From IMG/VR virus record IMGVR_UViG_2526164601_000022: a stretch of DNA of 17,593 nt; one strand, written 5' to 3'. The DNA is from a virus. Taxonomy: Duplodnaviria; Heunggongvirae; Uroviricota; Caudoviricetes. Shown here one piece after another: positions 1 to 17,593 of the stretch (position 1 is the first letter of the stretch; each line of letters begins with the position of its first letter). Below the pieces are notes generated by a model. The model made no database searches. It worked only from the letters and a program-made list of their open reading frames with translations, and was not told the origin of the DNA. A program made the position numbers and the translations under genes.

Positions 1-1
1 C

Positions 2-55: not shown

Positions 56-245
56 ACTGCAGGCGCTGCGTCAGGCGCGCCTTGATTTATTAACCGGTAA
101 ACGGGTGGTGTCTGTCCAGAAAGATGGACGAAGAATTGAATATACGGCGGCCTCTCTGGATGATCTTAACCGGGCGATCAATGATGCGGAGTCAGTGCTG
201 GGGACAACAAGCCGCCGCCGTCGTCCGCTGGGAGTGAGGTTATGA
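39..245 (+). CDS. W: Head-tail joining protein gpW
   Basis: 68 aa, same length as lambda gpW; motif TGKRVVSVQKDGRRIEYTAASLDDL matches recalled lambda W ([25 protein letters not shown]); stop overlaps the B start (ATGA). Confidence 0.85.
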   Translation: MVTVAELQALRQARLDLLTGKRVVSVQKDGRRIEYTAASLDDLNRAINDAESVLGTTSRRRRPLGVRL

Positions 246-1834
246 AACGAACGCCTGTCCTGATTGATGTGAACGGTGTTCCGCTTCGGGAGAGCCTCAG
301 CTACAACGGGGGCGGTGCAGGATTTGGCGGGCAAATGGCGGAGTGGTTGCCACCGGCGCAGAGTGCCGATGCGGCCCTGTTGCCCGCGTTGCGTCTGGGC
401 AATGCCCGTGCAGATGATCTGGTGCGCAATAACGGGATAGCGGCCAATGCGGTGGCACTGCATAAGGATCATATTGTCGGGCATATGTTTCTGATCAGCT
501 ACCGTCCGAACTGGCGCTGGCTGGGGATGCGGGAGACTGCAGCAAAAAGTTTTGTCGATGAGGTGGAGGCGGCCTGGTCGGAATACGCCGAAGGGATGTC
601 TGGCGAGATCGACGTGGAAGGGAAACGCACGTTTACGGAATTTATCCGTGAAGGTGTGGGCGTTCATGCGTTTAACGGCGAAATCTTTGTGCAGCCGGTC
701 TGGGATACGGAGAGCACGCAACTGTTTCGTACGCGTTTTAAAGCCGTGAGTCCGAAACGGGTGGACACGCCAGGACACGGTATGGGGAACCGTTTTCTGC
801 GGGCCGGGGTGGAGGTCGATCGATATGGCCGTGCCGTTGCGTACCATATCTGTGAGGATGATTTTCCGTTCTCTGGTAGTGGACGATGGGAACGGATCCC
901 GCGTGAACTACCCACCGGGCGTCCGGCCATGCTGCATATTTTCGAGCCGGTGGAGGACGGGCAGACCCGTGGGGCTAATCAGTTTTACAGCGTCATGGAA
1001 CGGCTGAAGATGCTGGATTCCCTGCAGGCAACACAGCTTCAGTCGGCCATTGTGAAAGCCATGTATGCAGCGACGATTGAAAGTGAACTTGATACCGAAA
1101 AGGCCTTTGAATATATCGCCGGTGCGCCGCAGGGGCAGAAGGATAATCCGCTTATTAATATTCTGGATAAGTTCTCCACCTGGTATGACACGAATAACGT
1201 GACGCTGGGCGGTGTCAAAATTCCGCACCTTTTCCCCGGTGATGATCTGAAACTACAGACTGCGCAGGATTCAGACAATGGATTTTCGGCGCTTGAACAG
1301 GCGCTGCTGCGGTATATCGCCGCCGGTCTTGGCGTTTCCTACGAACAGTTGTCCCGGGATTACTCGAAGGTCAGTTATTCAAGTGCCCGCGCCTCCGCCA
1401 ATGAGTCGTGGCGCTATTTTACGGGACGACGAAAATTTATTGCGTCCCGGCTGGCCACGCAGATGTTTTCCTGCTGGCTGGAAGAGGCACTTCTTCGGGG
1501 GATTATTCGTCCGCCACGGGCGCGTTTTGATTTTTATCAGGCGCGATCAGCCTGGTCACGGGCTGAGTGGATTGGAGCCGGAAGAATGGCCATTGACGGG
1601 CTCAAGGAAGTCCAGGAATCAGTGATGCGCATTGAGGCCGGACTGAGCACGTATGAGAAAGAGCTGGCGCTGATGGGCGAGGATTATCAGGACATTTTCC
1701 GCCAGCAGGTCAGGGAATCTGCTGAGCGACAAAAAGCCGGACTCTCACGTCCGGTGTGGATAGCGCAGGCGTATGAGCAGCAGATAGCGGAGAGTCGCAG
1801 GCCGGAAGAGGAGACAACACCACGTGAGACGTAA
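242..1834 (+). CDS. B: Portal protein gpB
   Basis: 530 aa ORF (lambda B 533 aa) following W; SD GGAGTGAGG upstream of ATG 242; lambda-like synteny. Confidence 0.9.
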   Translation: MKRTPVLIDVNGVPLRESLSYNGGGAGFGGQMAEWLPPAQSADAALLPALRLGNARADDLVRNNGIAANAVALHKDHIVGHMFLISYRPNWRWLGMRETAAKSFVDEVEAAWSEYAEGMSGEIDVEGKRTFTEFIREGVGVHAFNGEIFVQPVWDTESTQLFRTRFKAVSPKRVDTPGHGMGNRFLRAGVEVDRYGRAVAYHICEDDFPFSGSGRWERIPRELPTGRPAMLHIFEPVEDGQTRGANQFYSVMERLKMLDSLQATQLQSAIVKAMYAATIESELDTEKAFEYIAGAPQGQKDNPLINILDKFSTWYDTNNVTLGGVKIPHLFPGDDLKLQTAQDSDNGFSALEQALLRYIAAGLGVSYEQLSRDYSKVSYSSARASANESWRYFTGRRKFIASRLATQMFSCWLEEALLRGIIRPPRARFDFYQARSAWSRAEWIGAGRMAIDGLKEVQESVMRIEAGLSTYEKELALMGEDYQDIFRQQVRESAERQKAGLSRPVWIAQAYEQQIAESRRPEEETTPRET

Positions 1835-3329: not shown

Positions 3330-3365
3330 AGCCAGTGCTGACCATCAACAGGAGGTTTTTACAAT

Positions 3366-3713
3366 ATGGTGACGAAAACCATCACTGAACAGCGTGCGGA
3401 AGTACGTATTTTTGCCGGTAATGATCCGGCTCATACCGCCACAGGCAGCAGCGGGATTTCCTCGGCAACACCGGCACTGACGCCCCTGATGCTGGATGAG
3501 GCTACCGGGAAACTGGTGGTCTGGGACGGACAGAAAGCCGGTAGTGCGGTTGGCATACTGGTACTGCCGCTTGAAGGCACAGAGACGGTACTGACGTATT
3601 ACAAGTCGGGGACCTTTGCGACGGAGGCAATCCGCTGGCCTGACAGTGTGGATGAACACAAAAAGGCAAATGCCTTTGCCGGCAGTGCCCTGAGTCACGC
3701 GGCGCTGCCGTAA
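3366..3713 (+). CDS. D: Head decoration protein gpD
   Basis: 115 aa; NDPAHTAT...TPLMLDE...KLVVWDG...YYKSGTF...AFAGSAL matches recalled lambda D; SD CAGGAGG upstream. Confidence 0.9.
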   Translation: MVTKTITEQRAEVRIFAGNDPAHTATGSSGISSATPALTPLMLDEATGKLVVWDGQKAGSAVGILVLPLEGTETVLTYYKSGTFATEAIRWPDSVDEHKKANAFAGSALSHAALP

Positions 3714-3770
3714 CACGTTATCAGGCCACCGCGGTGGCCTGACTGATTTCTGAATGAAAGGAACTGATTT

Positions 3771-4799
3771 ATGGGATTGTTTACGACCCGCCAGTTACTC
3801 GGTTATACCGAACAAAAAGTGAAATTTCGTGCGCTGTTTCTGGAGCTGTTTTTCCGCCGTACGGTGAATTTCCATACCGAAGAGGTGATGCTGGACAAAA
3901 TTACCGGAAAAACGCCGGTGGCGGCCTATGTCTCCCCGGTTGTTGAAGGAAAAGTGCTGCGTCATCGTGGTGGTGAAACCCGCGTGTTACGTCCGGGCTA
4001 CGTCAAGCCGAAACACGAATTTAATTACCAGCAGGCGGTTGAGCGTCTTCCCGGTGAAGATCCGGCTCAACTGAACGACCCGGCCTACCGTCGTCTGCGT
4101 ATCATCACCGATAACCTCAAACAGGAAGAGCATGCCATTGTCCAGGTGGAAGAAATGCAGGCGGTGAATGCCGTGCTGTATGGCAAATACACCATGGAAG
4201 GGGATCAGTTTGATACTGTCGAGGTGGATTTTGGACGCTCTGAAGGAAATAACATTGAGCAGGCCGACGGTAAAAAATGGTCTGAGCAGGACCGTGATAC
4301 GTTTGATCCGACGCATGATATTGACCTCTACTGCGATCAGGCCAGCGGTCTTGTGAATATTGCCATTATGGACGGTACTGTCTGGCGTCTGCTGAATGGT
4401 TTTAAGCTGTTCCGCGAAAAACTGGATACCCGTCGCGGCTCAAATTCACAACTCGAAACGGCAGTGAAAGACCTGGGGGCGGTGGTGTCTTTCAAAGGGT
4501 ATTACGGCGATCTGGCCATTGTGGTGGCGAAAACGTCTTATGTGGCAGAGGACGGTACCGAAAAACGTTATCTGCCGGAGGGCACGCTGGTCCTGGGAAA
4601 TACGGCTGCAGATGGGATCCGTTGTTACGGTGCCATTCAGGATGCGCAGGCGTTGTCCGAAGGTGTGGTGGCTTCTTCCCGTTACCCGAAACACTGGCTG
4701 ACCGTGGGCGATCCGGCCCGTGAATTTACCATGACGCAGTCCGCACCGCTGATGGTGCTGCCGGATCCGGATGAGTTTGTGGTGGTGCAGGTGAAATAA
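3771..4799 (+). CDS. E: Major capsid protein gpE
   Basis: 342 aa (lambda E 341); blocks LFLELFFRR, RPGYVKPKHE, DPAYRRLRII, EEMQAVNAVLYGKYTMEGD, LDTRRGSNSQLETAVKDLG, GDPAREFTMTQSAPLM match recalled lambda E. Confidence 0.93.
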   Translation: MGLFTTRQLLGYTEQKVKFRALFLELFFRRTVNFHTEEVMLDKITGKTPVAAYVSPVVEGKVLRHRGGETRVLRPGYVKPKHEFNYQQAVERLPGEDPAQLNDPAYRRLRIITDNLKQEEHAIVQVEEMQAVNAVLYGKYTMEGDQFDTVEVDFGRSEGNNIEQADGKKWSEQDRDTFDPTHDIDLYCDQASGLVNIAIMDGTVWRLLNGFKLFREKLDTRRGSNSQLETAVKDLGAVVSFKGYYGDLAIVVAKTSYVAEDGTEKRYLPEGTLVLGNTAADGIRCYGAIQDAQALSEGVVASSRYPKHWLTVGDPAREFTMTQSAPLMVLPDPDEFVVVQVK

Positions 4800-4807
4800 T
4801 CCGTGAG

Positions 4808-4836
4808 CGGGGGCGAAATGCCCCCGTGTCTTTTTT
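4808..4836 (+). terminator. Candidate intrinsic terminator / attenuating hairpin downstream of E
   Basis: 7-bp G+C stem CGGGGGC (4808-4814) / GCCCCCG (4820-4826), loop GAAAT, then TGTC + T6 (4831-4836); 9 nt after E stop, in the FI leader. Confidence 0.45.
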
Positions 4837-4850
4837 CACAGGGGGCTGAT

Positions 4851-5234
4851 ATGGCAACAAAAGAAGAAAATCAGAAACATCTTCGTCAACTGGCTGGCCT
4901 GCTGGGGCGCGAGGCGGATATGTCGGGGAGTGCTGCGGATATTGCGCAACGTGTGTCTGAGTGGGAAGAGGAGCTTGCTGCTTCCCGGGAGGGCATTATG
5001 CCTGGTGATGAGAGCGGGCCTGAGCAAAATCACACAGACGATGGTGAGCAGTTGCACAACACTGATGCTACGGATGATGTTAAAGCGGTCCGTGTGCGGA
5101 AATGCCTGCATGTGATGGGGTATTGCCCGGAGACAGGCCGTCCCGTTGAACTGACGTACCGGGGCATGCGTGTTCTGGTGCCATCACCACTGGCGACAGC
5201 CATGATACAGCACGGAACGGCTGAGCATGCGTGA
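4851..5234 (+). CDS. FI: DNA-packaging/head assembly protein gpFI
   Basis: N-terminus MATKEENQKHLRQLAGLL...AQRVSEWEEEL aligns with recalled lambda FI (MTKDELIARLRSLGEQL...ALRVAELKEEL). ATG 4851 preferred over the upstream GTG 4803 of the ORF track. Confidence 0.75.
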   Translation: MATKEENQKHLRQLAGLLGREADMSGSAADIAQRVSEWEEELAASREGIMPGDESGPEQNHTDDGEQLHNTDATDDVKAVRVRKCLHVMGYCPETGRPVELTYRGMRVLVPSPLATAMIQHGTAEHA

Positions 5235-5433
5235 TTTTCAGAATGCCTTTGATGCTGCCCTTGCCGGGGTGGACAGCACGATTGTTGAAGTGATGGGGCT
5301 CTGTGCGCAGTTCACCTCGGGGGCACAGTGTGGCAGCGAAGTTCAGGGGGTTTTTGACGATCCGGAGTCGCTGGGGTTTGCCGGTAGCGGGGTCCGTATT
5401 GAAGGAAGCTGCCCGTCATTATTTAACTGGTAA
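5227..5433 (+). pseudogene. FII: Head-tail connector gpFII, C-terminally truncated (about 66 homologous codons, then NW-stop)
   Basis: MRDFQNAFDAALAGVDSTIVEVMG...GVFDDPESLGFAGSGVRIEGSCPSLF matches the first ~66 residues of recalled lambda FII (117 aa); reading frame ends at TAA 5431-5433 where homology stops. Confidence 0.7.
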
Positions 5434-5801
5434 AGGAACGGTCCAGACTGAAACGGGCCACGGTCAGAAATCCGAATGCCAGAATTATCGTTAACCGCGG
5501 TGATCTCCCGGTGATTAAGCTGGGGATCAGGATGCCGGGGCGTCGTCCGGACAGCATACTCAAAGCCGGTCAGCATCGGTATCAGCGGGCATTTATTCAG
5601 CGATTAAAAAATGGTCGCTGGCATGTCATGCAGCGTGTGGCCGGGAAAAACCGTTACCCCATTGATGTGGTGAAAATCCCGATGGCGGCCCCACTGAAAC
5701 AGGCGTTTGATGAGAATGTTGACCGTATCCGGCGTGAACGCCTGCCCGGAGAACTGGCATATGCGCTGAAACAACAACTGAGGATTGCGATAAAACGATG
5801 A
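5427..5801 (+). pseudogene. Z: Tail protein gpZ, N-terminally truncated (only the C-terminal ~124 codons remain)
   Basis: Frame-3 ORF opens right after an in-frame TAA (5424-5426): LVKERSRLKRATVRNPNARIIVNRGDLPVIKLG...QRLKNGRWHVMQRVAGKNRYPIDVVKIPMA...RIRRERLP matches the C-terminal part of recalled lambda Z (192 aa); no 5' end or SD; stop overlaps U start (ATGA). Confidence 0.65.
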
Positions 5802-6193
5802 AACATACTGATATCCGTGCTGCAGTGCTGGATGCACTGGAGCTGCATGAACACGGGGCGACGCTGTTTGATGGTCGCCCCGTTGTTTTTGACGAAGAGG
5901 ATTTTCCCGCGGTCGCGGTTTATCTGACGGATGCAGAGTATACCGGTGAAGAGCTGGATGCGGATACCTGGCGGGCCACACTGCATATTGAAGTTTTCCT
6001 GCCTGCTCAGGTGCCGGATTCAGAGCTGGATTCGTGGATGGAGTCCCGGATTTATCCGGCGATGTCCGCGATCCCTGCACTGGCAGGGATGATTACCACG
6101 ATGGTTCAGCAGGGCTATGACTATCGTCGTGATGACGATATGGCGTTATGGAGCTCTGCAGATTTGACTTATTCCATTACATACGAGATGTGA
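5798..6193 (+). CDS. U: Tail terminator protein gpU
   Basis: 131 aa, same as lambda U; [15 protein letters not shown]...[19 protein letters not shown]...[16 protein letters not shown]...[10 protein letters not shown] is near-colinear with recalled lambda U. Confidence 0.92.
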
Positions 6194-6200
6194 GGACGAT

Positions 6201-6953
6201 ATGCCAACACCAAATCCCCTGGCGCCGGTAAAAGGTGCCGGTACCACTCTGTGGGTTTACACCGGCAAGGGTGATGCTTATGCAAACCCGTTGTCAGATG
6301 ATGACTGGCAGCGACTGGCTAAGGTGAAGGATCTGACGCCGGGCGAGATGACGGCAGAATCCTACGATGATAACTACCTGGATGATGAAGACGCGGACTG
6401 GAGCGCGACCGGGCAGGGACAGAAATCTGCGGGTGACACCCGTTTTACACTGGCCTGGAAACCGGGAGAAGAAGGTCAGAAAGGGCTTATAGGCTGGTTT
6501 GAAAGCGGGGATGTGCGGGCCTATAAAATCCGTTTTCCGAATGGCACGGTGGATGTGTTTCGTTGCTGGATCAGCAGTATCGGTAAGGCAGTGACGGCGA
6601 AAGAAGTGATCACCCGAACAGTGAAAGTGACCAACGTGGGCAAACCTTCCGTGGCGGAAGAACGCAGCGAAATTACGCCGGCCACTGCAATTAAGGTGAC
6701 ACCGACATCCGGTACCGTGGAAAAAGGAAAAACAACCACCCTGACTGTTTCTTTTGAGCCGGAAAGTGCAACCGACAAGACGTTCAGAGCGGTTTCCGCC
6801 GATCCGTCAACGGGAACCATTGCTGTGAAAGATATGGTGATCACTGTGACGGGGGTTAAGGCTGGAAAAGTGAGTATCCCCGTGATTTCCGGTAATGGTC
6901 AGTTTGCCACGGTAGCTGAAGTCACCGTTACTGAAGCGGGCGCTGCAGGGTAA
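6201..6953 (+). CDS. V: Major tail tube protein gpV (with C-terminal Ig-like domain)
   Basis: 250 aa (lambda V 246); [12 protein letters not shown]...[23 protein letters not shown]...[14 protein letters not shown]...[15 protein letters not shown] matches recalled lambda V; SD GAGGA upstream. Confidence 0.93.
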
Positions 6954-6966
6954 ACGGAGGTCATAC

Positions 6967-7398
6967 ATGTTTCTGAAAACAGAACAATTTGAATATAACG
7001 GTGTGTCTGTCACGCTTTCCGAATTGTCTGCGCTGCAGCGTATTGAGCATCTTGCCCTCCTGAAACGGCGTGCAGAACAGGCAGAATCCAGCGGCAACCT
7101 GCAGGTAAGCGTGGAAGATCTCGTCAGAACCGGCGCGTTTCTGGTGGCGATGTCCCTGTGGCATAACCATCTGCAGAAAACGGGGTCACCGTCAATGAAT
7201 GAGGCCGTGATGCAGATTGAGCAGGAAGTCCTGACCACCTGGCCTGCTGATGCCATTGCCCGGGCGGAAGACGTGGTGTTGTGCCTGTCCGGGATGATCG
7301 AAGCTGTTCGTCCGGATACTGATATTACTGAAGTGGCGAAAAATAACACGCTGACTGATGATGATTTTTCTGCGGGAAAGTCTTCGACGGCGAGCTGA
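6967..7398 (+). CDS. G: Tail assembly chaperone gpG
   Basis: 143 aa (lambda G 140); MFLKTEQFEYNGVSVTLSELSALQRIEHLALLKRRAEQAES...GAFLVAMSLWHNH matches recalled lambda G; SD GGAGG upstream. Confidence 0.9.
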   Translation: MFLKTEQFEYNGVSVTLSELSALQRIEHLALLKRRAEQAESSGNLQVSVEDLVRTGAFLVAMSLWHNHLQKTGSPSMNEAVMQIEQEVLTTWPADAIARAEDVVLCLSGMIEAVRPDTDITEVAKNNTLTDDDFSAGKSSTAS

Positions 7399-7838
7399 AC
7401 TTTGCCCTCAGACTGGCGCGAGAGATGGGGAGGCCTGACTGGCGCGCCATGCTTGCCGGGATGACATCCACCGAATATGCCGACTGGCGACATTTTTACC
7501 GCACGCATTATTTTCAGGATACCCAGCTGGATATGCATTTTTCCGGGCTGACGTACGCTGTACTCAGCCTGTTTTTTTGCGATCCGGATATGCATCCCTC
7601 TGATTTCAGTCTGCTTGTCCCCCGGCATGAGGAAGAGCAGGTGGAGAGGCCGGATGAGGACAAAATGCTGATGCAGAAAGCGGCAGGACTTGCCGGAGGC
7701 GTCCGGTTCGGTGGGGACGGAGGGCGCGATATTTTATCGTCTGCGGATGTGGCGGATGTCATGGTGGATGATGCCGCATTAATGATGGCTTCAGCGGAGA
7801 TTTCCGGAGGTGTGAGATATGTCCCAGCCGGTTGGTGA
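6967..7838 (+). CDS. G-T: Tail assembly chaperone G-T fusion made by -1 frameshift (join 6967..7380, 7380..7838)
   Basis: -1 frame after the slippery site reads VFDGELNFALRLAREMGRPDWRAMLAGMTSTEYADWRHFYRTHYF...LMQKAAGLAGGVRFG, matching recalled lambda T; has no independent start/SD context. Confidence 0.75.
7374..7380 (+). promoter_or_regulatory. Programmed -1 ribosomal frameshift slippery heptamer G GGA AAG (G to G-T recoding site)
   Basis: GGGAAAG lies in G frame as G|GGA|AAG, 6 codons before the G stop; the -1 frame is open from 7365 to 7838 and encodes the T domain. Confidence 0.75.
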
Positions 7839-10398
7839 TCTTGTTATTGACCTGAGTCTGGATGCTGTCCGTTTCGATGAGCAGATGAGCCGGGTAAGGC
7901 GTCATTTTTCAGGTCTGGATACCGACGTCAGAAAAACCGCCAGTGCTGTTGAACAGGGCCTGAGCCGCCAGGCGCTGGCTGCACAAAAAGCCGGGATTTC
8001 CGTCGGGCAGTATAAAGCGGCCATGCGAACCCTGCCCGCACAGTTTACGGATATCGCCACGCAGCTTGCCGGTGGTCAGAATCCCTGGCTGATCCTGCTG
8101 CAACAGGGCGGTCAGGTGAAGGACTCCTTCGGCGGGATGATCCCCATGTTCAGGGGGCTTGCCGGTGCGATCACCCTGCCGATGGTCGGGGTCACCTCGC
8201 TGGCGGTGGCGACAGGTGCGCTGGCGTACGCCTGGTACCAGGGGGATTCCACGCTTTCAGCGTTTAATAAAACCCTGGTTCTTTCCGGTAATCAGTCCGG
8301 ACTGACTGCCGATCGTATGCTGACTCTCTCAAGAGCCGGGCAGGCAGCAGGGCTGACGTTTAACCAGGCGAGAGAGTCACTGGCAGCCCTGGTGAATGCC
8401 GGTGTGCGTGGTGGTGAACAGTTTGATGCCATCAACCAGAGTGTCGCGCGTTTTGCGTCTGCATCCGGTGTGGAGGTGGATAAAGTCGCTGAAGCCTTCG
8501 GGAAGCTGACCACTGACCCGACGTCGGGACTGATGGCGATGGCGCGCCAGTTCCGTAACGTGACGGCAGAGCAGATTGCGTATGTTGCGCAGCTGCAGCG
8601 TTCCGGTGATGAGGCCGGGGCCTTACAGGCGGCGAACGATATCGCCACGAAAGGCTTTGATGAGCAGACCCGTCGCCTGAAAGAAAACATGGGAACACTG
8701 GAGACCTGGGCGGATAAAACCGGGAAGGCATTCAAATCGATGTGGGATGCCATTCTGGATATCGGTCGTCCTGAGTCCTCAGCGGATATGCTCGCCAGTG
8801 CGCAGAAGGCATTTGATGAGGCGGATAAAAAATGGCAGTGGTACCAGAGTCGGAGCCAGCGCCGCGGTAAAACCTCCTCTTTCCGGGCCAACCTTCAGGG
8901 CGCATGGAATGACCGGGAAAATGCCCGTCTGGGGCTGGCAGCGGCCACGCTGCAGTCGGATATGGAAAAAGCCGGTGAACTGGCCGCCAGGGACCGGGCC
9001 GAACGGGACGCATCACAGCTGAAGTATACCGGAGAGGCGCAGAAGGCGTATGAGCGTCTGCTGACGCCGCTGGAGAAATATACCGCCCGTCAGGAAGAAC
9101 TGAATAAGGCACTGAAAGACGGGAAAATCCTGCAGGCAGATTACAACACGCTGATGGCGGCGGCGAAAAAGGATTATGAATCGACGCTGAAAAAGCCGAA
9201 ACAGTCCGGCGTGAAGGTGTCTGCGGGCGATCGTCAGGAAGACAGTGCTCATGCTGCCCTGCTGACGCTTCAGGCAGAACTCCGGATGCTGGAGAAGCAT
9301 GCCGGAGCGAATGAGAAAATCAGCCAGCAGCGTCGCGATTTATGGAAAGCGGAAAATCAGTATGCGGTCCTGAAAGAGGCAGCCACGAAACGGCAGTTAT
9401 CTGAGCAGGAAAAATCCCTGCTGACCCATGAGAAAGAGACGCTGGAGTACAAACGCCAGCTGGCTGAGCTGGGAGACAAAGTTGAACACCAGAAACGGCT
9501 GAATGAGCTGGCACAGCAGGCTGCGCGGTTTGAGCAGCAGCAGGGCGCGAAGCAGGCGGCAATCAGTGCCCAGGCGCGGGGCCTCACCGACCGTCAGGTG
9601 CAGCGGGAGTCGGAAGAGCAGCGCCTTCGTGACGTGTACGGTGATAATCCGGATGCGCTGGCGAAGGCCACATCTGCACTGAAGAACACCTGGTCTGCGG
9701 AGGAGCAGCTTCGTGGAAGCTGGATGGCCGGTCTGAAGTCCGGCTGGGGCGAGTGGGCAGAAAGTGCGACGGACAGTTTTTCGCAGGTTAAAAGCGTGGC
9801 CACGCAGACCTTTGACGGTATTGCACAGAATATGGCAGCGATGCTGACCGGCAGCGAACAGAGCTGGCGTGGTTTCACCCGTTCTGTGCTCTCCATGCTG
9901 ACAGAGATTTTTCTGAAGCAGGCCATGGTGGGGATTGTCGGGAGTATTGGCAGCGCCATGGGTGGTGCTTTCGGTGGTGGTGCGTCTGCCTCCACGGGGA
10001 CGGCCATTCAGGCTGCGGCGGCGAACTTCCATTTCGCGACCGGAGGATTTACGGGAACCGGTGGCAAATACGAACCTGCCGGTATTGTCCACCGCGGGGA
10101 GTTTGTCTTCACGAAGGAGGCAACCAGCCGGATTGGCGTCGGCAACCTGTATCGTCTGATGCGCGGGTATGCGGAAGGTGGTTATGTGGGCGGTGCCGGA
10201 AGTTCGGCGCAGATGCGGCGGACGGAAGGCATTAATTTTAATCAGAACAATCACGTGGTGATTCAGAACGACGGCTCCAACGGACAGGCGGGGCCGCAGC
10301 TGATGAAGGCGGTGTATGACATGGCCCGCAAGGGGGCGCAGGATGAGATTCAGGCGCAGATGCGTGATGGCGGCGTCTTTTCCGGAGGCAGGCGATGA
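7819..10398 (+). CDS. H: Tail tape measure protein gpH
   Basis: 859 aa (lambda H 853); N-terminus MSQPVGDLVIDLSLDAVRFDEQMSRVRRHFSG...AGISVGQYKAAMRTLPAQFTD...LILLQQGGQVKDSFGGMIPMFRGLAGAITLPMVG matches recalled lambda H; coiled-coil-like middle, Gly-rich C-terminal part. Confidence 0.93.
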   Translation: MSQPVGDLVIDLSLDAVRFDEQMSRVRRHFSGLDTDVRKTASAVEQGLSRQALAAQKAGISVGQYKAAMRTLPAQFTDIATQLAGGQNPWLILLQQGGQVKDSFGGMIPMFRGLAGAITLPMVGVTSLAVATGALAYAWYQGDSTLSAFNKTLVLSGNQSGLTADRMLTLSRAGQAAGLTFNQARESLAALVNAGVRGGEQFDAINQSVARFASASGVEVDKVAEAFGKLTTDPTSGLMAMARQFRNVTAEQIAYVAQLQRSGDEAGALQAANDIATKGFDEQTRRLKENMGTLETWADKTGKAFKSMWDAILDIGRPESSADMLASAQKAFDEADKKWQWYQSRSQRRGKTSSFRANLQGAWNDRENARLGLAAATLQSDMEKAGELAARDRAERDASQLKYTGEAQKAYERLLTPLEKYTARQEELNKALKDGKILQADYNTLMAAAKKDYESTLKKPKQSGVKVSAGDRQEDSAHAALLTLQAELRMLEKHAGANEKISQQRRDLWKAENQYAVLKEAATKRQLSEQEKSLLTHEKETLEYKRQLAELGDKVEHQKRLNELAQQAARFEQQQGAKQAAISAQARGLTDRQVQRESEEQRLRDVYGDNPDALAKATSALKNTWSAEEQLRGSWMAGLKSGWGEWAESATDSFSQVKSVATQTFDGIAQNMAAMLTGSEQSWRGFTRSVLSMLTEIFLKQAMVGIVGSIGSAMGGAFGGGASASTGTAIQAAAANFHFATGGFTGTGGKYEPAGIVHRGEFVFTKEATSRIGVGNLYRLMRGYAEGGYVGGAGSSAQMRRTEGINFNQNNHVVIQNDGSNGQAGPQLMKAVYDMARKGAQDEIQAQMRDGGVFSGGRR

Positions 10399-10724
10399 AA
10401 ACATTTCGCTGGAAAGTGAAGCCGGATATGGAGGTGAACTCGCAGCCATCGGTGCGTGAAGTGCGTTTTGGTGACGGGTATTCGCAGCGTATGGCGGCGG
10501 GGCTGAATGCTGACCTGAAAACATACCGTGTGACGCTTTCCGTGACCCGGGAGGAGGCCCGACATCTGGAGGCATTCCTGGCAGAGCACGGTGGCTGGAA
10601 GGCGTTTCTGTGGACACCGCCTTATGCCTGGCGGCAGATAAAGGTGACCTGTGCCGCCTGGTCATCACGGGTTCGCATGCTGCGGGTTGAATTCAGTGCC
10701 GAGTTTAAGCAGGTGGTGAACTGA
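10395..10724 (+). CDS. M: Minor tail protein gpM
   Basis: 109 aa, same as lambda M; MKTFRWKVKP...VRFGDGYSQR...KTYRVTLSV...HGGWKAFLWTPPYAWRQIKVTCAAWSSRVRMLRVEFSAEFKQVVN matches recalled lambda M; ATGA overlap with H and L. Confidence 0.92.
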   Translation: MKTFRWKVKPDMEVNSQPSVREVRFGDGYSQRMAAGLNADLKTYRVTLSVTREEARHLEAFLAEHGGWKAFLWTPPYAWRQIKVTCAAWSSRVRMLRVEFSAEFKQVVN

Positions 10725-11421
10725 TGCAGGATATTCACGAAGAAAGTCTGAACGAGTCGGTTAAATCAGAGCAGTCACCGCGGGTGGTGCTCTGGGAAAT
10801 TGACCTGACGGTGCAGGGCGGTGAGCGGTATTTTTTCTGTAATGAGCTGAATGAAAAAGGGGAGGCGGTCACCTGGCAGGGGCGGCAATATCAGGTATAC
10901 CCGATTGACGGCAGTGGCTTTGAGATGAACGGGAAGGGCAGCAGTGCCCGCCCGTCGCTGACGGTGTCGAATCTGTTCGGTCTGGTCACCGGAATGGCGG
11001 AGGACCTGCAGAGCCTGGTGGGGGCCACGGTGGTCCGCCGCCGGGTGTATGCCCGTTTTCTGGATGCGGTGAATTTTGTGGCGGGCAATCCGGAAGCGGA
11101 CCCGGAGCAGGAGCTGAGCGACCGCTGGGTGGTGGAGCAGATGTCAGAGCTGACGGCCATGACAGCCTCGTTTGTGCTGGCAACACCGACGGAGACGGAC
11201 GGAGCGCTGTTTCCCGGTCGCATTATGCTGGCGAATACCTGTATGTGGACCTACCGCTCTGATGAGTGTGGTTACACGGTCCTGCGGTGGCGGATGAGTT
11301 CGATAAACCCATCACCGATATCCGTAAGGACAGATGCAGCAAGTGCATGCGCGGGTGTGAGATGCGCGGCATGGTGGCTAATTTTGGCGGTTTCCTTTCC
11401 ATTAACAAACTTTCGCAGTAA
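10724..11421 (+). pseudogene. L: Minor tail protein gpL, 1-bp frameshift near codon 185 (or assembly indel)
   Basis: Residues 1-184 match recalled lambda L (…GRIMLANTCMWTYRSDECGY); the lambda-like C-terminus GPAVADEFDKPITDIRKDRCSKCMRGCEMRGMVANFGGFLSINKLSQ-stop continues from 11278 in frame +2 relative to the start, implying one missing base at 11276-11278. The uninterrupted track ORF (to 11731) is the out-of-frame readthrough. Confidence 0.75.
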
Positions 11422-11426
11422 ATCCA

Positions 11427-12170
11427 ATGACACAGACAGAATCAGCGATTCTGGCGCATGCCCGGCGGTGTGCGCCTGCGGAGTCGTGCGGCTTCGTGGT
11501 GAGAACGCCGGAGGGGGAGCGGTATATCCCTTGTGTGAATATCTCTGCAGAGCCGGAGGCGTATTTTCGTATTGCACCGGAAGACTGGCTGCGGGCAGAG
11601 ATGCAGGGGGAGATTGTGACACTGGTCCACAGTCATCCCGGTGGTCTGCCCTGGCTGAGCGAGGCCGACCGGCGGCTGCAGATAAAAAGTGCACTGTCCT
11701 GGTGGCTGGTCTGCCGGGGGGAAATTCATAAATTCCGCTGTGTGCCACATCTGACAGGACGGCGCTTTGAGCACGGGGTGACGGACTGTTACACGCTGTT
11801 CCGGGATGCCTACCATCTGGCGGGAATTGATATGCCGGATTTTGAGCGTGAGGATGACTGGTGGCGCAACGGTCAGAACCTTTACCTGGACAATATGGAG
11901 GCGACTGGTTTTTACAGGATTTCCCTGCCTTCCGCACAGCCTGGCGATATCCTGCTGTGCTGCTTTGGCGCATCGGTGGCCAATCATGCCGCCATATACT
12001 GCGGCAACGGTGAACTGCTTCACCATCTGCCTGAACAACTGAGTAAACGGGAGAGGTATTCCGAAAAATGGCAACGACGAACGCATTCAGCCTGGCGTCA
12101 CCGCCACTGGCACGTATCTGCCTTCACGGGGATTTACAACGATTTGGCCGCCGCCTCAGCCTGTATGTGA
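11427..12170 (+). CDS. K: Tail tip assembly protein gpK (JAB/MPN metalloprotease + NlpC/P60 domains)
   Basis: 247 aa; JAMM motif HSHPGGLPWLSEAD (HxHx7SxxD); C-terminal Cys/His region (GVTDCYTLF...NHAAIYCG...HH) consistent with NlpC/P60; 103-nt overlap with I as in lambda. Confidence 0.88.
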   Translation: MTQTESAILAHARRCAPAESCGFVVRTPEGERYIPCVNISAEPEAYFRIAPEDWLRAEMQGEIVTLVHSHPGGLPWLSEADRRLQIKSALSWWLVCRGEIHKFRCVPHLTGRRFEHGVTDCYTLFRDAYHLAGIDMPDFEREDDWWRNGQNLYLDNMEATGFYRISLPSAQPGDILLCCFGASVANHAAIYCGNGELLHHLPEQLSKRERYSEKWQRRTHSAWRHRHWHVSAFTGIYNDLAAASACM

Positions 12171-12748
12171 ACACGGCAGCGGAAGCCATCCGTGCCCTGT
12201 CGATGCAGATGCCGGGATTCCGCCGTCAGATGAACGAAGGCTGGTACCAGATACGTATTCGCGGTGAGGACACGGCACCGGAGGCGGTGTACGCCCGTCT
12301 TCACGAACAGCTGGGTGAGGGAACGGTCATCCACATTGTGCCGCGACTGGCCGGGGCCGGAAAGGGTGGACTGCAGATTGTGCTGGGGGCGGCAGCCATC
12401 GTGGGGTCGTTCTTCACGGCCGGGGCATCAATGGCGTTATGGGGTTCAGCCCTGGCAGCCGGTGGTTTTTCTGCCACCACGATGCTGTTTTCACTGGGGG
12501 CCAGCATGATTCTGGGTGGTGTGGCCCAGATGCTGGCCCCGAAGGCAAAAGCACCGGATTACCGCGCAACGGATAACGGCAGACAGAACACGTACTTTTC
12601 CTCACTGGACAACATGATTGCTCAGGGGAACCCGATGCCGGTGCCTTACGGTGAAATGCTGGTTGGCTCCCGCCGTATATCCCAGGACATCAGTACCCGT
12701 GATGAAGGCGGTGACGGGAAGGTGGTGGTTATCGGGCGGCAGGCATAA
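12068..12748 (+). CDS. I: Tail tip assembly protein gpI
   Basis: 226 aa (lambda I 223); MATTNAFSLASPPLARICLHGDLQRFGRR...GWYQIRI...VIHIVPRLAGA...QNTYFSSLDNM matches recalled lambda I. Confidence 0.9.
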   Translation: MATTNAFSLASPPLARICLHGDLQRFGRRLSLYVNTAAEAIRALSMQMPGFRRQMNEGWYQIRIRGEDTAPEAVYARLHEQLGEGTVIHIVPRLAGAGKGGLQIVLGAAAIVGSFFTAGASMALWGSALAAGGFSATTMLFSLGASMILGGVAQMLAPKAKAPDYRATDNGRQNTYFSSLDNMIAQGNPMPVPYGEMLVGSRRISQDISTRDEGGDGKVVVIGRQA

Positions 12749-12752
12749 AAGC

Positions 12753-12791
12753 GAAAAAATCCCGCAGTGCTCACGGACAGGAACTGCGGGA
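12753..12791 (-). terminator. Candidate intrinsic terminator for - strand transcription (distal to sodC)
   Basis: 9-bp inverted repeat TCCCGCAGT (12760-12768) / ACTGCGGGA (12783-12791), 14-nt loop; on the - strand the stem is followed by U6 (complement of A6 at 12753-12758). No U-tract on the + strand. Confidence 0.35.
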
Positions 12792-12901
12792 GAGTTACGA
12801 AGATTGAGTGTAAGGAATTATTCTTATGTCACGACAAAAACATTAACTCAGAGAGGGAGGATGTGCCGTTCTTTTCAGGGAGAAAGGATTTATCGTCCTG
12901 A

Positions 12902-12929
12902 GGAATAAAGGTAAGGGCCCGCCCTTACC
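12902..12929 (-). terminator. Candidate intrinsic terminator of sodC
   Basis: Perfect 9-bp inverted repeat GGTAAGGGC (12910-12918) / GCCCTTACC (12921-12929), 2-nt spacer; on the - strand followed by UUUAUUCC; 8 nt downstream of the sodC stop. Confidence 0.45.
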
Positions 12930-12936
12930 TGACTGA

Positions 12937-13464
12937 TTATTGAATGATGCCGCAGGCCATTCTCGCACCACCACCGCCCAGGGGCTCCGGATGGTCATGA
13001 TGGTTATCACCGCCAGCATGAAGCATGAGAGAACGCCCTTTAATCTCTTTTAATGAGTTCAGTCTCGGGGCCAGGACCGGGTAGTTCGCTTTTCCGTCAT
13101 GCGTCACGAACAGCGCAGGGAGGTCGCCCAGGTGTCCATCCGGAGACCAGGGGCCAAGATGTTTGCCGGTGTTTTTCGGGTCAAAGTGACCGCCAGCCGA
13201 TAATGCTGCGACCGGTTTTCCGTCTTTCAGTGCCGGGGCGCAATTTCCTTTTTCGTGCACATGAAAACCATGAATGCCTTCAGACAGAGAGTGAAGGGCT
13301 GGTGTGAACAGCAGACCGTAGGGGGTCTCCTGAATGGTTATTTTTCCAATGCTGACTTCTTTTCCGTCAGCACTGACAAGGTTCATTGGGACTTCCTGTT
13401 CTGCTGCGTATCCGCATGATGCTGCTGTCAGCATGGCAATGGCAGCAATGATTTTACATTTCAT
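12937..13464 (-). CDS. sodC: Periplasmic Cu,Zn superoxide dismutase (prophage cargo/moron)
   Basis: 175 aa from ATG at 13464-13462 with SD GAGGG 6 nt upstream; signal peptide [20 protein letters not shown]; Cu/Zn-SOD motifs [47 protein letters not shown]. The 344-aa track ORF is an upstream over-extension. Confidence 0.9.
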
Positions 13465-13597
13465 AAAACCCTCATTAATTCCGTTAACAGACTGAGCTTG
13501 CTGGTTACAGGGTAACAAACAGCGTTCTGATGATATCGCGCAATAGCTGTGCAATATCCTATCACTGCGATTAATAATACCAATTGAGAGGAACATT

Positions 13598-16500
13598 ATG
13601 GGTAAAGGTGGCGGCAGGGCGCACACACCTCGTGAGGCGAAGGACAATCTCAAATCCACGCAGATGATGAGCGTGATTGACGCCATTGGTGAAGGGCCGA
13701 TTGAAGGTCCGGTGAAGGGGCTGCAGAGTATCCTGGTGAACAAAACCCCGCTGACGGACACGGACGGTAATCCTGTGATACATGGTGTGACCGCGGTCTG
13801 GCGCGCCGGGGAGCAGGAGCAGACACCACCTGAAGGCTTTGAGTCCTCCGGGGCGGAAACCGCACTGGGCGTGGAAGTGACGAAGGCAAAGCCGGTGACG
13901 CGCACCATTACATCCGCGAACATTGACCGCCTGCGGGTCACCTTCGGGGTGCAGTCACTGGTGCAGACCACGTCAAAGGGTGACCGAAACCCGACATCCG
14001 TCCGACTGCTGATTCAGTTACAGCGTAACGGTAACTGGGTGACGGAAAAGGATGTCACCATTAACGGCAAGACCACCTCGCAGTTTCTGGCGTCGGTGAT
14101 TCTGGATAATCTGCCTGAGCGGCCCTTTAACATCCGGATGGTCCGGGAGACAGCGGACAGCACCTCGGACCAGCTGCAGAATAAGACGCTCTGGTCGTCA
14201 TACACCGAAATCATCGATGTGAAACAGTGCTACCCGAACACGGCGATTGTGGGGCTGCAGGTGGATGCGGAGCAGTTCGGCGGCCAGCAGATGACGGTGA
14301 ACTACCATATCCGCGGTCGCATCATCCAGGTGCCGTCAAACTATGACCCGGAAAAACGCACGTACAGTGGTATCTGGGACGGCAGTCTGAAACCGGCATA
14401 CAGCAACAACCCGGCCTGGTGTCTGTGGGACATGCTGACTCACCCGCGCTACGGCATGGGAAAACGTCTGGGGGCGGCGGATGTGGACAAGTGGGCGCTG
14501 TATGCCATCGGGCAGTACTGCGACCAGACGGTCCCGGATGGTTTCGGGGGGACCGAGCCGCGGATGACCTTTAATGCGTACCTGGCACAACAGCGTAAGG
14601 CGTGGGACGTTCTCAGTGATTTCTGCTCTGCGATGCGCTGTATGCCGGTATGGAACGGTCAGACGCTGACGTTCGTTCAGGACCGCCCGTCGGATGTGGT
14701 GTGGCCGTACACCAACAGCGATGTGGTGGTGGATGATAACGGCGTGGGATTCCGCTACAGCTTCAGTGCCCTGAAGGACCGGCACACGGCGGTGGAGGTG
14801 AATTACACCGACCCGCAGAACGGCTGGCAGACCTCCACGGAACTGGTGGAAGACCCGGAAGCCATACTGCGCTACGGACGCAACCTGCTGAAGATGGACG
14901 CGTTCGGCTGTACCAGCCGCGGTCAGGCCCACCGTGCCGGACTGTGGGTGATAAAGACCGAACTGCTGGAAACGCAGACGGTGGATTTCACGCTCGGGTC
15001 TCAGGGGCTGCGGCACACACCCGGTGACATTATTGAAATCTGTGATAATGACTATGCCGGGACCCTGACCGGCGGACGTGTCCTGTCCATTGATGCTGCC
15101 ACCCGCACCCTGACGCTGGACCGTGAGGTGACCCTGCCGGAGACAGGTGCCGCCACGGTGAACCTGATTAACGGCAGCGGTAAGCCGGTGAGTGTGGCCA
15201 TCACTGCACACCCCGCGCCGGACCGGATACAGGTCAGCACCCTGCCTGATGGTGTGGAGACATACGGTGTATGGGGACTCTCCCTGCCGTCACTGCGTCG
15301 TCGCCTGTTCCGCTGTGTCTCCATCCGGGAAAACACGGACGGCACCTTTGCCATCACGGCGGTGCAGCACGTACCGGAAAAGAAGCCATCGTGGATAACG
15401 GGGCCAGCTTTGAGCCGCAGTCAGGCACCCTGAACAGCGTTATTCCACCGGCAGTGCAGCACCTGACGGTGGAGGTGAGCGCGGCTGACGGTCAGTATCT
15501 GGCACAGGCGAAATGGGACACGCCGCGGGTGGTGAAGGGTGTGCGCTTCAGTCTGCGCCTGACCAGCGGAAGCGGAGAAGACAGCCGTCTGGTGACCACC
15601 GCCATCACTGCGGATACAGAGCATCGTTTCAGTGGTCTGCCGCTCGGGGAATACACCCTGACAGTCAGGGCAATTAACAGTTATGGCCAGCAGGGGAACC
15701 GGCCACCACCACGTTCAGGATTAATGCACCTGCGGTACCGCCACGATTGAGCTGACACCGGGCTATTTTCAGATAACAGCGGTCCCGCGTCTTGCGGTGT
15801 ATGACCCGACGGTACAGTTTGAGTTCTGGTTTTCGGAGGCAAAAATCGCAGACATATCTCAGGTGGAAACCTCTGCCCGTTATCTGGGGACCGGCAGTCA
15901 GTGGAGTGTATCCGGCCCGCACATTAAGCCCGGGAAGGATTTCTGGTTTTACGTGCGCAGCGTCAACCTGGTGGGGAAATCTGCTTTTGTGGAAGCCAGT
16001 GGCCGGGCCAGCAATGATGCAGAAGGGTATCTGGGACTGTTTCGGGAAAAAATAGGAAAACTGCATCTGGCTCAGGGGCTGTGGGAGCTGATAGACAACA
16101 GCCAGCTTGCGGATGAGATGGCGGAGATGAAGACCACCATCACCGAAACCCGCAATGAAATCACACAGACGGTCAGTAAAACGCTGGAAGACCAGAGCGC
16201 CACCATACAGCAGATACAGCGCGTGCAGAAGGACACAAATGATGACCTTGCTGCACTTTACATGCTGAAGGTACAGAAAACAAAAAATGGCATACCCTAT
16301 GTTGCCGGTATTGGAGCGGGGATTGAGGATACTGATGGCCAGCCCCTGAGCAACATACTGCTGCTGGCTGACCGTATTGCGATGATTAACCCGGAGGACG
16401 GCAACACCACGCCGTTATTTGTGGCGCAGGGGAATCAGTTGTTCATGAACGATGTGTTCCTGAAGCGGCTGTTTGCGGTGAGTATCACCTCGTCCGGCAA

Positions 16501-17069
16501 TCCCCCGACGTTTTCCCTGACGCCGGAGGGCAGGCTGACCGCAAGAAATGCTGATATCAGCGGTAACGTGAATGCGAATTCCGGGACGCTCAACAACGTC
16601 ACGATTAACGAGAACTGTCGGGTTCTGGGAAAACTGTCCGCGAACCAGATTGAAGGCGATCTCGTTAAAACAGTGGGCAAAGCTTTCCCCCGGGATTCCC
16701 GTGCACCGGAGCGGTGGCCATCAGGGACCATTACCGTCAGGGTTTATGACGATCAGCCGTTTGACCGACAAATTGTTATTCCGGCGGTGGCATTCAGCGG
16801 CGCTAAGCATGAGAGAGAGCATACTGATATTTACTCCTCATGCCGTCTGATAGTGCGGAAAAAACGGTGCTGAAATTTATAACCGTACCGCGCTGGATAA
16901 TACGCTGATTTACAGTGGCGTTATTGATATGCCTGCCGGTCACGGTCACATGACGCTGGAGTTTTCGGTATCAGCATGGCTGGTGAATAACTGGTATCCC
17001 ACAGCAAGTATCAGCGATTTGCTGGTTGTGGTGATGAAGAAAGCCACCGCAGGCATCAGTATCAGCTGA
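13598..17069 (+). pseudogene. J: Central tail fiber / host specificity protein gpJ, interrupted by four 1-bp indels (or assembly errors)
   Basis: Colinear with recalled lambda J (1132 aa) from [22 protein letters not shown] to the C-terminal ...[14 protein letters not shown]-stop (17067-17069), but homology hops frames at ~15378-15381 (A4, -1), ~15693-15696 (G4, -1), ~15744-15746 (-1) and 16859-16864 (A6, +1). SD GAGAGGAACATT before ATG 13598. Confidence 0.8.
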
Positions 17070-17088
17070 ATTTTATAACCCATATACG

Positions 17089-17112
17089 GGCGCCAGAAAT
17101 GGCGCCTTTTTT
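17089..17112 (+). terminator. Intrinsic terminator downstream of J
   Basis: 7-bp stem GGCGCCA (17089-17095) / TGGCGCC (17100-17106) with GAAA tetraloop, immediately followed by T6 (17107-17112); 20 nt after the repaired J stop. Confidence 0.6.
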
Positions 17113-17136
17113 ATTGCAGAAAAGCGAGAGGTAATT

Positions 17137-17593
17137 ATGCGTAAACTTTATGCCGCCATTTTGTCCGCAGCCATTTGTCTGGCCGTATCCGGTGCGCCTG
17201 CATGGGCGTCTGAACATCAGTCCACGCTGAGCGCGGGGTATCTTCATGTCTCGACGAACGTTCCTGGCAGCGATGAACTGAACGGGATTAACGTGAAATA
17301 CCGTTATGAGTTTACGGACACTCTGGGAATGGTGACGTCATTCAGCTATGCAGGAGACAAGAATCGCCAGCTGACCCGTTACAGCGATACCCGCTGGCAT
17401 GAAGATTCCGTGCGTAACCGCTGGTTCAGCGTGATGGCGGGGCCGTCTGTGCGCGTGAATGAATGGTTCAGCGCGTATGCGATGGCGGGTGTGGCTTACA
17501 GCCGTGTGTCGACTTTCTCCGGGGATTATCTTCGCGTAACTGACAACAAGGGGAAAACGCACGATGTGCTGACCGGAAGTGATGACGGTCGCC
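17137..17593 (+). CDS. lom: Ail/Lom-family outer membrane protein (partial; continues past window end)
   Basis: ORF open from ATG 17137 (SD GAGAGG 5 nt upstream) to window end, 152 codons; signal peptide MRKLYAAILSAAICLAVSGAPAWA; GINVKYRYEFTD, SVMAGPSVRVN, SAYAMAGVAYSR match recalled lambda Lom blocks. Absent from the ORF track because it has no in-window stop. Confidence 0.8.
   Translation, partial: MRKLYAAILSAAICLAVSGAPAWASEHQSTLSAGYLHVSTNVPGSDELNGINVKYRYEFTDTLGMVTSFSYAGDKNRQLTRYSDTRWHEDSVRNRWFSVMAGPSVRVNEWFSAYAMAGVAYSRVSTFSGDYLRVTDNKGKTHDVLTGSDDGR

What the first reader, a model, noticed from the sequence alone, without database searches (positions are those of the whole stretch)
15370..15760. 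Three single-base deletions within ~370 bp of J that together restore the frame
J homology moves through three frames: at GGAAAAG (15376-15382; expected 5 A for VPEKE), at CAGGGGAAC (G4, 15693-15696) and near 15744-15746 (CCACG/ATTGAG). The net change is -3, so the distal two-thirds of J is back in the starting frame, but each shifted segment ends in a stop (15431-15433, 15748-15750, 15753-15755). Either genuine decay of J or homopolymer-biased sequencing error; two of three sites are homopolymers.
Basis: partly seen in the sequence, partly recalled or inferred. Interest (0 to 1): 0.5.

Follow-up and report, generated by a model that had tools for sequence, protein, structure and literature searches.

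The report
Frameshifts in a draft-assembly prophage J gene
The three one-base deletions that break the phage tail-tip gene J are really in this deposited sequence, but they are most likely consensus errors in a 2012 draft contig built from a multi-copy prophage, so the finding is ordinary.

Summary
The stops at 15431, 15748 and 15753 are correct. A fourth frameshift (A5->A6, 16859-16864) also breaks the distal part.

The window is the whole contig AIGO01000013.1 of the E. coli DEC9E (O26:H11) draft. Every broken product occurs only on this contig. The closed genome of the clonal sister DEC9B has intact J. It shows zero substitutions across 15320-16767, where the three deletions lie.

Repairing four bases gives a 1157-aa J. 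Of its 27 substitutions against DEC9B, 26 are pre-existing natural alleles. The contig is a patchwork of at least two DEC9B co-resident prophages. Two frameshifts sit exactly at allele switches: L at 11281 is an out-of-register hybrid, and J site 1 combines PB's A4 with PA's single G.

Best reading is sequencing or assembly artefact (about 0.75). Genuine decay is about 0.2. Interest is low either way.

The parts
13598..17069 (+). Lambda-type tail-tip/host-specificity gene J, broken into four ORFs in this record
   Evidence: Intact 3474-nt gpJ lies at the same place in DEC9B, B1_2 and H19. Repairing four single bases gives a 1157-aa ORF. Pfam on the pieces: FNIII-A_GpJ, Phage-tail_3, Ig_J, Ig_J_second, Phage_Tail_Tip, Ig_GpJ_C.
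13598..15433 (+). J piece 1: 611-aa ORF, with true J homology to 15381 and then 17 out-of-frame codons before a TGA
   Evidence: The product is found on this contig only.
15378..15381 (+). Site 1: A4 run where homologues have A5 (or A4GG)
   Evidence: DEC9B PA has AAAAAG and PB has AAAAGG, while the window has AAAAG. There is no match to this variant in 5,426 complete genomes. One unrelated draft-derived contig, L129, has the same variant.
15391..15750 (+). J piece 2: called 119-aa ORF carrying J homology in the second frame (15382-15696), ending at TGA 15748-15750
15693..15696 (+). Site 2: G4 where homologues have GGGCG (87 copies) or GGGGG (42 copies)
   Evidence: The same G4 variant occurs in two complete genomes, both annotated as frameshifted.
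15697..15755 (+). Short third-frame stretch: J homology 15697-15737, with the frame running to TGA 15753-15755
15738..15739 (+). Site 3: CC where homologues have CCC
15797..16873 (+). J piece 3: called 358-aa ORF. J homology is back in the starting frame from 15740.
16859..16864 (+). Fourth J frameshift: A6 where PA, PB, B1_2 and H19 have A5
16929..17069 (+). J piece 4: 46-aa C-terminal remnant (Ig_GpJ_C)

Best explanation
The three deletions are consensus errors of a draft assembly, not mutations in the bacterium. The same probably applies to the fourth J frameshift, the L frameshift and the shortened hairpin.

The window is a complete 17.6-kb contig of the 2012 E. coli DEC9E draft. It consists entirely of lambdoid late-region DNA, which is present in several similar copies per genome. 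Reads from co-resident prophages were probably merged wherever the copies are about 97-100% identical.

That would give a chimeric consensus. It follows one copy where the copies diverge. Elsewhere it switches between copies and miscounts short runs. Run-length miscalls and out-of-register switches then appear as single-base indels.

Shown:
- The lesions are unique to this contig.
- J is intact in the sister strain.
- There are no accompanying substitutions.
- The contig has a patchwork structure.
- Two frameshifts coincide with allele switches.

Inferred: the read-level mechanism. The sequencing platform could not be verified.
For: 1. Source. The window is the entire contig AIGO01000013.1 of GCA_000249975.2, which is the DEC9E draft (PMC5592225).

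2. Uniqueness. The 611-, 119-, 358-, 335- and 68-aa broken products each occur on this one contig in an index of 153 billion gene positions. As a control, the intact sodC product of the same window is listed in 14,716 index blocks.

3. Sister strain. In the DEC9B closed genome, prophage PA has intact gpJ. Window 15320-16767 has 0 substitutions but 3 deletions against it.

4. Repair. Correcting four bases restores a 1157-aa J with only 4 aa differences from DEC9B. Of the 27 nt differences, 26 are seen in other natural alleles and only one is private. The indel variants are absent from that panel, apart from copies fetched by searching for them. Private indels therefore outnumber private substitutions by at least 4 to 1. 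That is the reverse of spontaneous mutation, by established knowledge of E. coli mutation spectra.

5. Complete genomes. The A4G variant has no match in 5,426 complete genomes. None of 1,198 places has both downstream deletions.

6. Patchwork. Window 1-3500 matches DEC9B prophage PB. Regions 3503-10090, 12649-15080 and 15381-16702 match PA. Region 16807-17433 matches PB, and the rest matches neither. Even the intact 859-aa tape-measure allele is unique to this contig. No genome matches 10090-12120 at 99% or better.

7. Frameshifts at allele switches. The L frameshift at 11281 joins PA sequence to an FDAARGOS_1059-type allele through an ACGG that is offset by 1 nt between the alleles. J site 1 combines PB's A4 with PA's single G, and the nearest upstream marker (15319) is PB-type.

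8. Hairpin. The hairpin at 12910-12929 has G3/C3, whereas 39 of 39 other copies have G4/C4.
Against: - No reads, coverage or quality values could be examined, and the announcement paper is not held. The platform and the collapse of repeats are therefore inferred.
- Inside 15381-16702 the consensus is pure PA with no base bleeding through from another copy. Sites 2 and 3 therefore cannot be attributed to mixing of copies. They are plain miscalls under this reading.
- A C3->C2 error and loss of a lone C are not the most typical homopolymer errors.
- The 327-bp deletion at 5424/5425 has no junction homology and could be a real lesion. A real lesion there would make a defective, decaying prophage plausible.
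- Frame-breaking changes in this part of J occur in about 7% of other prophage contigs. Broken J genes are therefore not rare, whatever their cause.
Confidence: 0.75

Rival explanations
1. Genuine pseudogenisation. DEC9E carries a defective lambdoid prophage whose tail genes are decaying. J has acquired four slippage indels at short runs, L one, and FII/Z a 327-bp deletion.
For: - Lesions cluster in one prophage that also has a large deletion removing parts of two essential head-tail genes. After such a deletion, selection on J would be relaxed.
- Run-length changes are also the commonest real indels.
- Frameshifted J genes are annotated in complete genomes, including the same G4 at site 2.
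- Defective lambdoid prophages are well known in EHEC and EPEC strains (established knowledge).
Against: - No neutral substitutions accompany the indels in about 1.45 kb. In J overall, private indels outnumber private substitutions 4 to 1.
- The clonal sister DEC9B has the same allele intact.
- Once the first frameshift existed, nothing favours three more in so short a time.
- The L frameshift and J site 1 are out-of-register hybrids of two alleles. In-register homologous recombination does not produce these.
- No lesion recurs in any other assembly of this lineage.
Confidence: 0.2
2. Real but recombinational. The contig faithfully shows a DEC9E prophage rebuilt by many short gene-conversion events with co-resident prophages. 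Some events resolved out of register and left 1-nt deletions.
For: - The contig is a patchwork of PA-, PB- and other-type tracts.
- Two indels lie exactly at type switches.
- Lambdoid prophages in one cell do recombine (established knowledge).
Against: - The switch in L occurs inside a 4-nt identity, between diverged blocks less than 40 nt apart. That is far below the identity needed for RecA-type exchange.
- Sites 2, 3 and 4 lie inside uniform tracts.
- It would require dozens of exchanges since the split from DEC9B, while the rest of the tract stayed identical.
Confidence: 0.04
3. Functional recoding or phase variation. The short runs are slippage sites that switch J expression on and off, or ribosomes shift frame three times to make full-length J.
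For: - Site 1 (GAA AAG) would allow a tRNA-Lys -1 slip.
- The same runs are hit in unrelated assemblies.
Against: - Homologues encode J as one uninterrupted ORF with A5, GGGCG or G5, and CCC.
- Runs of 3-5 nt are too short for known phase variation.
- Each shifted segment ends in a stop within 9-318 nt of the next required shift, and three to four consecutive shifts would give negligible product.
- There is no conserved slippery heptamer.
Confidence: 0.01

Closest known systems
Bacteriophage lambda gpJ (tail tip attachment / host specificity protein, TipJ family)
   Same: It sits in the same position after I (here with a sodC cargo gene between) and before lom. The domain order is the same across the pieces: FNIII-A_GpJ, Phage-tail_3, Ig_J, Ig_J_second, Phage_Tail_Tip, Ig_GpJ_C. 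Once four bases are repaired it is 1157 aa, with 4 aa differences from DEC9B gpJ.
   Different: In this record it is split into four ORFs of 611, 119, 358 and 46 aa by three -1 changes and one +1 change.
Run-length (homopolymer) indel errors and chimeric consensus of collapsed repeats in draft genome assemblies
   Same: The single-base changes affect run length. They are private to one draft contig made only of multi-copy prophage DNA. Indels outnumber private substitutions. Two indels sit at switches between paralogous alleles.
   Different: Platform, read depth and read-level heterogeneity could not be checked. Two of the sites (C3->C2 and loss of a C in GGGCG) are shorter runs than the classic error-prone ones.
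Defective lambdoid prophages of EHEC/EPEC (for example the O157 Sakai 'defective prophage pool'; from my own knowledge, not re-read here)
   Same: These are lambdoid prophages with frameshifts and deletions in morphogenesis genes, many similar copies per genome, and effector or sodC/lom cargo.
   Different: Those lesions come from finished, verified sequence. Here the lesions are absent from the closed genome of the sister strain and from every other assembly searched.
Programmed -1 frameshift of lambda G/GT tail assembly chaperones
   Same: A change of reading frame within the tail gene cluster.
   Different: G/GT uses a slippery site conserved in all relatives. At the J sites, all relatives have an uninterrupted frame.

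Membership tests
Lambda gpJ / TipJ tail-tip protein gene | Full-length colinear similarity to gpJ, with the family's domain order | tested here: met
   99.1% nt identity over 3473 nt to DEC9B gpJ. The Pfam domains of the four pieces are in gpJ order.
Lambda gpJ / TipJ tail-tip protein gene | Position in the late operon after M-L-K-I and before lom | tested here: met
   The gene order in the contig and in three annotated relatives agrees.
Lambda gpJ / TipJ tail-tip protein gene | One uninterrupted ORF of about 1130-1165 aa | tested here: not met
   The record has four ORFs. The ORF is restored only after four single-base repairs.
Genuine frameshift pseudogene | The lesion is reproducible in independent sequence of the same strain or lineage | tested here: not met
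   The lesions are absent from DEC9B. The broken products occur on no other contig. DEC9E itself could not be re-examined.
Genuine frameshift pseudogene | Neutral substitutions accompany the indels, with relaxed constraint | tested here: not met
   There are 0 substitutions in 15320-16767. Only 4 of 27 differences change an amino acid, and 26 of 27 are pre-existing alleles.
Assembly/sequencing artefact in a repeat-derived contig | The sequence is multi-copy in the genome, and the contig consists only of the repeat | tested here: met
   The sister genome has 8 J places and 4 or more late-region places. The contig runs from the terminase end to lom only.
Assembly/sequencing artefact in a repeat-derived contig | The consensus is a chimera of co-resident copies | tested here: inconclusive
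   There is a patchwork of DEC9B PA and PB plus other types, with out-of-register hybrids at 11281 and 15378. However, natural mosaic alleles also exist, since H19-type J matches 15091-15296.
Assembly/sequencing artefact in a repeat-derived contig | Reads show mixed alleles, excess depth or low quality at the sites | not testable with these tools
   There is no access to reads or qualities, and the announcement paper is not held.
Programmed ribosomal frameshift / phase-variable tract | A slippery motif or long tract conserved in relatives that share the split frame | tested here: not met
   All relatives are in one frame at these sites. The runs are only 2-5 nt.

The most novel reading that the evidence does not exclude
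The indels are real. On this reading, the same short runs in J are recurrent slippage hot spots through which resident lambdoid prophages repeatedly lose the tail tip. These are the A-run in the VPEKE codons and the G-run in the QQGE codons. They are also shortened in an unrelated draft contig (L129) and in two complete genomes (16-9255 and FORC_044). This would be a semi-reversible on/off switch for tail or particle production.
Probability: 0.03. Interest if true: 0.3.

Novelty: not a real feature. Interest (0 to 1): 0.05.

Why it matters
It matters mainly as a caution. Apparent 'compensated' frameshifts in multi-copy prophage genes of draft assemblies should not be read as gene decay or recoding without read support. 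If the lesions were real, they would be one more defective lambdoid prophage in an EPEC/EHEC-lineage strain, which is already a well-known situation.

Tried and rejected
- The DEC collection announcement (Hazen 2012) is not held, by DOI or PMC id. A text search for the platform found nothing useful. The sequencing technology therefore stays unverified.
- I tried to recover a third DEC9B paralogue to explain the 'neither' patches and sites 2 and 3. For 10090-12120 and 13560-15340, no DEC9B copy was better than PA, and no genome reached 99% or more except PA. The search tool lists only one place per record, so the other J copies of DEC9B stayed out of reach.
- I considered that site 2 arose by averaging a GGGCG copy with a GGGGG copy. 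I set this aside because no other base of a G5-type allele (about 2% divergent) appears anywhere in 15381-16702.
- I checked whether strain 2014C-3061, whose match was 1 nt shorter, shared a deletion. Its frameshift is at a different run, near 15646.
- I looked for junction microhomology at the 327-bp deletion. There is none.
- I scanned IMG/VR for the window's L variant, with or without the missing base. There were no hits. The matching natural allele was found instead in FDAARGOS_1059.
- The 5-bp 'deletion' at 11426 and the +T at 17085 turned out to be natural allelic forms, FDAARGOS_1059-type and PB-type respectively, and not lesions.

Full report
**What is in the sequence**

The window is the late (head and tail) region of a lambdoid prophage. 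The gene order is W, portal, C, D, E, FI, FII, Z, U, V, G, T, H, M, L, K, I, then sodC on the minus strand, then J and the start of lom.

J starts at 13598 with the typical MGKG...[13 protein letters not shown]-terminus and reads in one frame to ...AVQHVPEK. After that, the J homology continues in a second frame (EAIVDNGASFEPQ...YGQQG). It then runs for 14 codons in the third frame. From ...IELTPGYFQ onward it is back in the starting frame.

**The three deletions**

I aligned the window globally to the intact prophages of E. coli B1_2, H19 and DEC9B. This places the three events precisely:
- Site 1 is A5->A4 at 15378-15381.
- Site 2 is GGGCGAA->GGGGAA at 15693-15696.
- Site 3 is CCC->CC at 15738-15739.

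- The third site is a C-run about 6 nt upstream of where it was placed.
- The nearest relatives have GGGCG, not G5, at the second site. G5 is nevertheless a common natural allele, at 42 of 129 IMG/VR copies against 87 with GGGCG.
- The part of J that returns to frame is about 38% of the gene, and it carries a further +1 frameshift (A5->A6, 16859-16864).

As deposited, J is therefore four ORFs of 611, 119, 358 and 46 aa.

**Where the window comes from**

An exact-protein look-up shows that the window is the whole of contig AIGO01000013.1 (17,593 bp) of assembly GCA_000249975.2. A published strain table identifies this as the draft genome of E. coli DEC9E. DEC9E is O26:H11, ST29, isolated in Mexico in 1986, from the DEC collection drafts of 2012 (PMC5592225). 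The announcement paper is not held, so I could not verify the sequencing platform.

**Are the lesions seen anywhere else?**

Each broken product is encoded on this one contig only, in an index of 153 billion gene positions. This applies to the 611-, 119- and 358-aa J pieces, the 335-aa L read-through and the 68-aa FII remnant. As a control, the intact sodC product of the same window is listed in 14,716 blocks of that index. In nine of the ten places shown, the neighbouring J is a single ORF of 1157-1165 aa.

Results in 5,426 complete E. coli genomes:
- The best matches to 15200-15900 all span 704 nt against the window's 701.
- A 44-nt probe carrying the A4G variant finds nothing.
- Of 1,198 places matching an 85-nt probe over sites 2 and 3, none has both deletions.
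- Two of those places (O121:H19 16-9255 and FORC_044) have G4 at site 2, and both are annotated as frameshifted J.

One unrelated draft-derived viral contig (L129, with a J allele only 92% identical) has the same A4 at site 1. In IMG/VR, 8 of 122 J copies carry some frame-breaking change in the same 483-bp stretch. Broken J genes in this region are therefore commonplace in assemblies, whatever their cause.

**Comparison with the clonal sister strain**

DEC9B belongs to the same ST29 clone and has a closed genome. Its prophage next to zinT, which I call PA, has an intact 1157-aa gpJ. It is the best match to the window's J in the whole collection.

Between 15320 and 16767 (1,448 nt) the window has no substitution against PA, yet it has all three deletions.

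I repaired four single bases: +A at site 1, +C at site 2, +C at site 3, and -A at 16859. This gives a complete 1157-aa ORF differing from DEC9B gpJ at 27 nt and only 4 aa. Of the 27 substitutions, 26 are found in other natural J alleles in a local panel of about 160 loci, and only 16768A is private. The indel variants are absent from that panel, except in loci I fetched by searching for them.

In J, private indels therefore outnumber private substitutions by at least 4 to 1. Spontaneous mutation in E. coli gives several-fold more substitutions than small indels. That is established knowledge from mutation-accumulation work, not re-derived here. The pattern fits base-calling or consensus error better than decay.

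**The contig is a patchwork of co-resident prophages**

- The first 3.4 kb matches a different DEC9B prophage, PB (the cif/nleH prophage at 1.77 Mb), at 99.9%. It matches PA at only about 98%.
- A three-way alignment assigns 1-3500 to PB, 3503-10090 mostly to PA, and 10092-12115 to neither. It assigns 12136-12568 to PB, and 12649-15080 and 15381-16702 to PA. Region 16807-17433 goes to PB.
- The window follows PA cleanly where PA and PB are strongly diverged. It switches type where they are about 97-99% identical.
- Even the intact 859-aa tape-measure protein is unique to this contig.
- No complete genome matches 10090-12120 at 99% or better.

A consensus built from merged reads of similar repeats would look like this. 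Natural mosaicism cannot be excluded from sequence alone. For example, the H19-type J allele already carries the window's bases at 15091-15296.

**Two frameshifts sit exactly at allele switches**

In L, the window reads GGTTACA|CGGTCCTGCGGTGG. The left part is PA (GGTTACACGGGCGGGGCTGTGG). The right part is the allele found in FDAARGOS_1059 (GGGTATAACGGTCCTGCGGTGG). The shared ACGG is offset by one base between the two alleles, so joining them there loses one base. The next PA-type marker follows within 36 nt. This is not what homologous recombination produces.

At J site 1, DEC9B PA has CCGGAAAAAGAAGCC and PB has CCGGAAAAGGAAGCC. The window has CCGGAAAAGAAGCC, which is the shorter A-run of PB with the single G of PA. 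The nearest upstream marker (15319) is PB-type, and everything downstream is PA-type. An aligner or consensus caller that treats a substitution next to a run as two length differences would give this result. That mechanism is inferred, not shown.

Sites 2 and 3 and the A6 insertion lie inside uniform PA or PB tracts. Under the artefact reading they are plain run-length miscalls.

The I/sodC terminator hairpin (12910-12929) has G3/C3, whereas all 39 other copies found have G4/C4.

**Other differences in the window**

- The 5-nt gap at 11426 and the extra T at 17085 are natural allelic forms, FDAARGOS_1059-type and PB-type respectively.
- A 327-bp deletion at 5424/5425 removes the end of FII and the start of Z. 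It has no junction homology and is unique to the contig. It could be a real lesion or a mis-join, and I cannot tell which.

**Verdict**

The best explanation is sequencing or assembly artefact in a repeat-derived draft contig (about 0.75). Genuine decay of a defective prophage remains possible (about 0.2). A faithful but recombination-scrambled prophage has about 0.04. Recoding or phase variation is essentially excluded (about 0.01). All relatives have one uninterrupted frame, the runs are only 2-5 nt, and several consecutive shifts would be needed.

Either way the finding is ordinary. Reads, or PCR and Sanger sequencing anchored in sodC and the PA-specific part of J, would settle it.

Noticed in passing
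window 5424/5425: A 327-bp deletion relative to B1_2, H19 and DEC9B removes the C-terminal third of FII and the first ~52 codons of Z. The junction has no microhomology. The resulting 68-aa product is unique to this contig.
   Followed up: partly
window 11270-11290 (gene L, 10724-11731): There is a one-base loss in L. The sequence is PA-type up to GGTTACA and then FDAARGOS_1059-type from CGGTCCTGCGG, joined through an ACGG that is offset by 1 nt between the alleles. L then reads on for 335 aa into K.
   Followed up: yes
window 12910-12929: The terminator-like hairpin between I and sodC is GGTAAGGG-CCCG-CCCTTACC. All 39 other copies found have one more G and one more C (a 9-bp stem), so both arms are shortened symmetrically here.
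   Followed up: partly
window 16859-16864: A fourth J frameshift: an A6 run where PA, PB, B1_2 and H19 have A5. It cuts off the last ~70 codons of J, leaving a 46-aa ORF at 16929-17069.
   Followed up: yes
window 1-17593: The window is an entire draft contig and a patchwork of two or more prophages of the sister strain DEC9B. PB-type tracts are 1-3500, 12136-12568 and 16807-17433. Most of the rest is PA-type, and 10092-12115 matches neither.
   Followed up: yes
window 7819-10398: The intact 859-aa tape-measure protein allele is found on no other contig in the 153-billion-gene index. That is odd for a heavily sampled O26 prophage family and fits a chimeric consensus.
   Followed up: partly
window 12937-13464 (minus strand): An intact Cu/Zn superoxide dismutase (sodC) cargo gene lies between I and J. 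The identical product is listed in 14,716 index blocks. PB lacks this insert.
   Followed up: partly
L129 703-733; L154 and L155 2501-2586: The same run-length variants occur in unrelated assemblies. A4 at site 1 is in an IMG/VR draft-derived contig with a 92%-identical J. G4 at site 2 is in O121:H19 16-9255 and FORC_044, both annotated as frameshifted. In 16-9255, J is split into several pieces.
   Followed up: partly
window 11426 and 17085: A 5-nt shorter L-K spacer and an extra T with compensatory hairpin changes after J look like lesions against PA. Both are natural allelic forms, FDAARGOS_1059-type and PB-type.
   Followed up: yes
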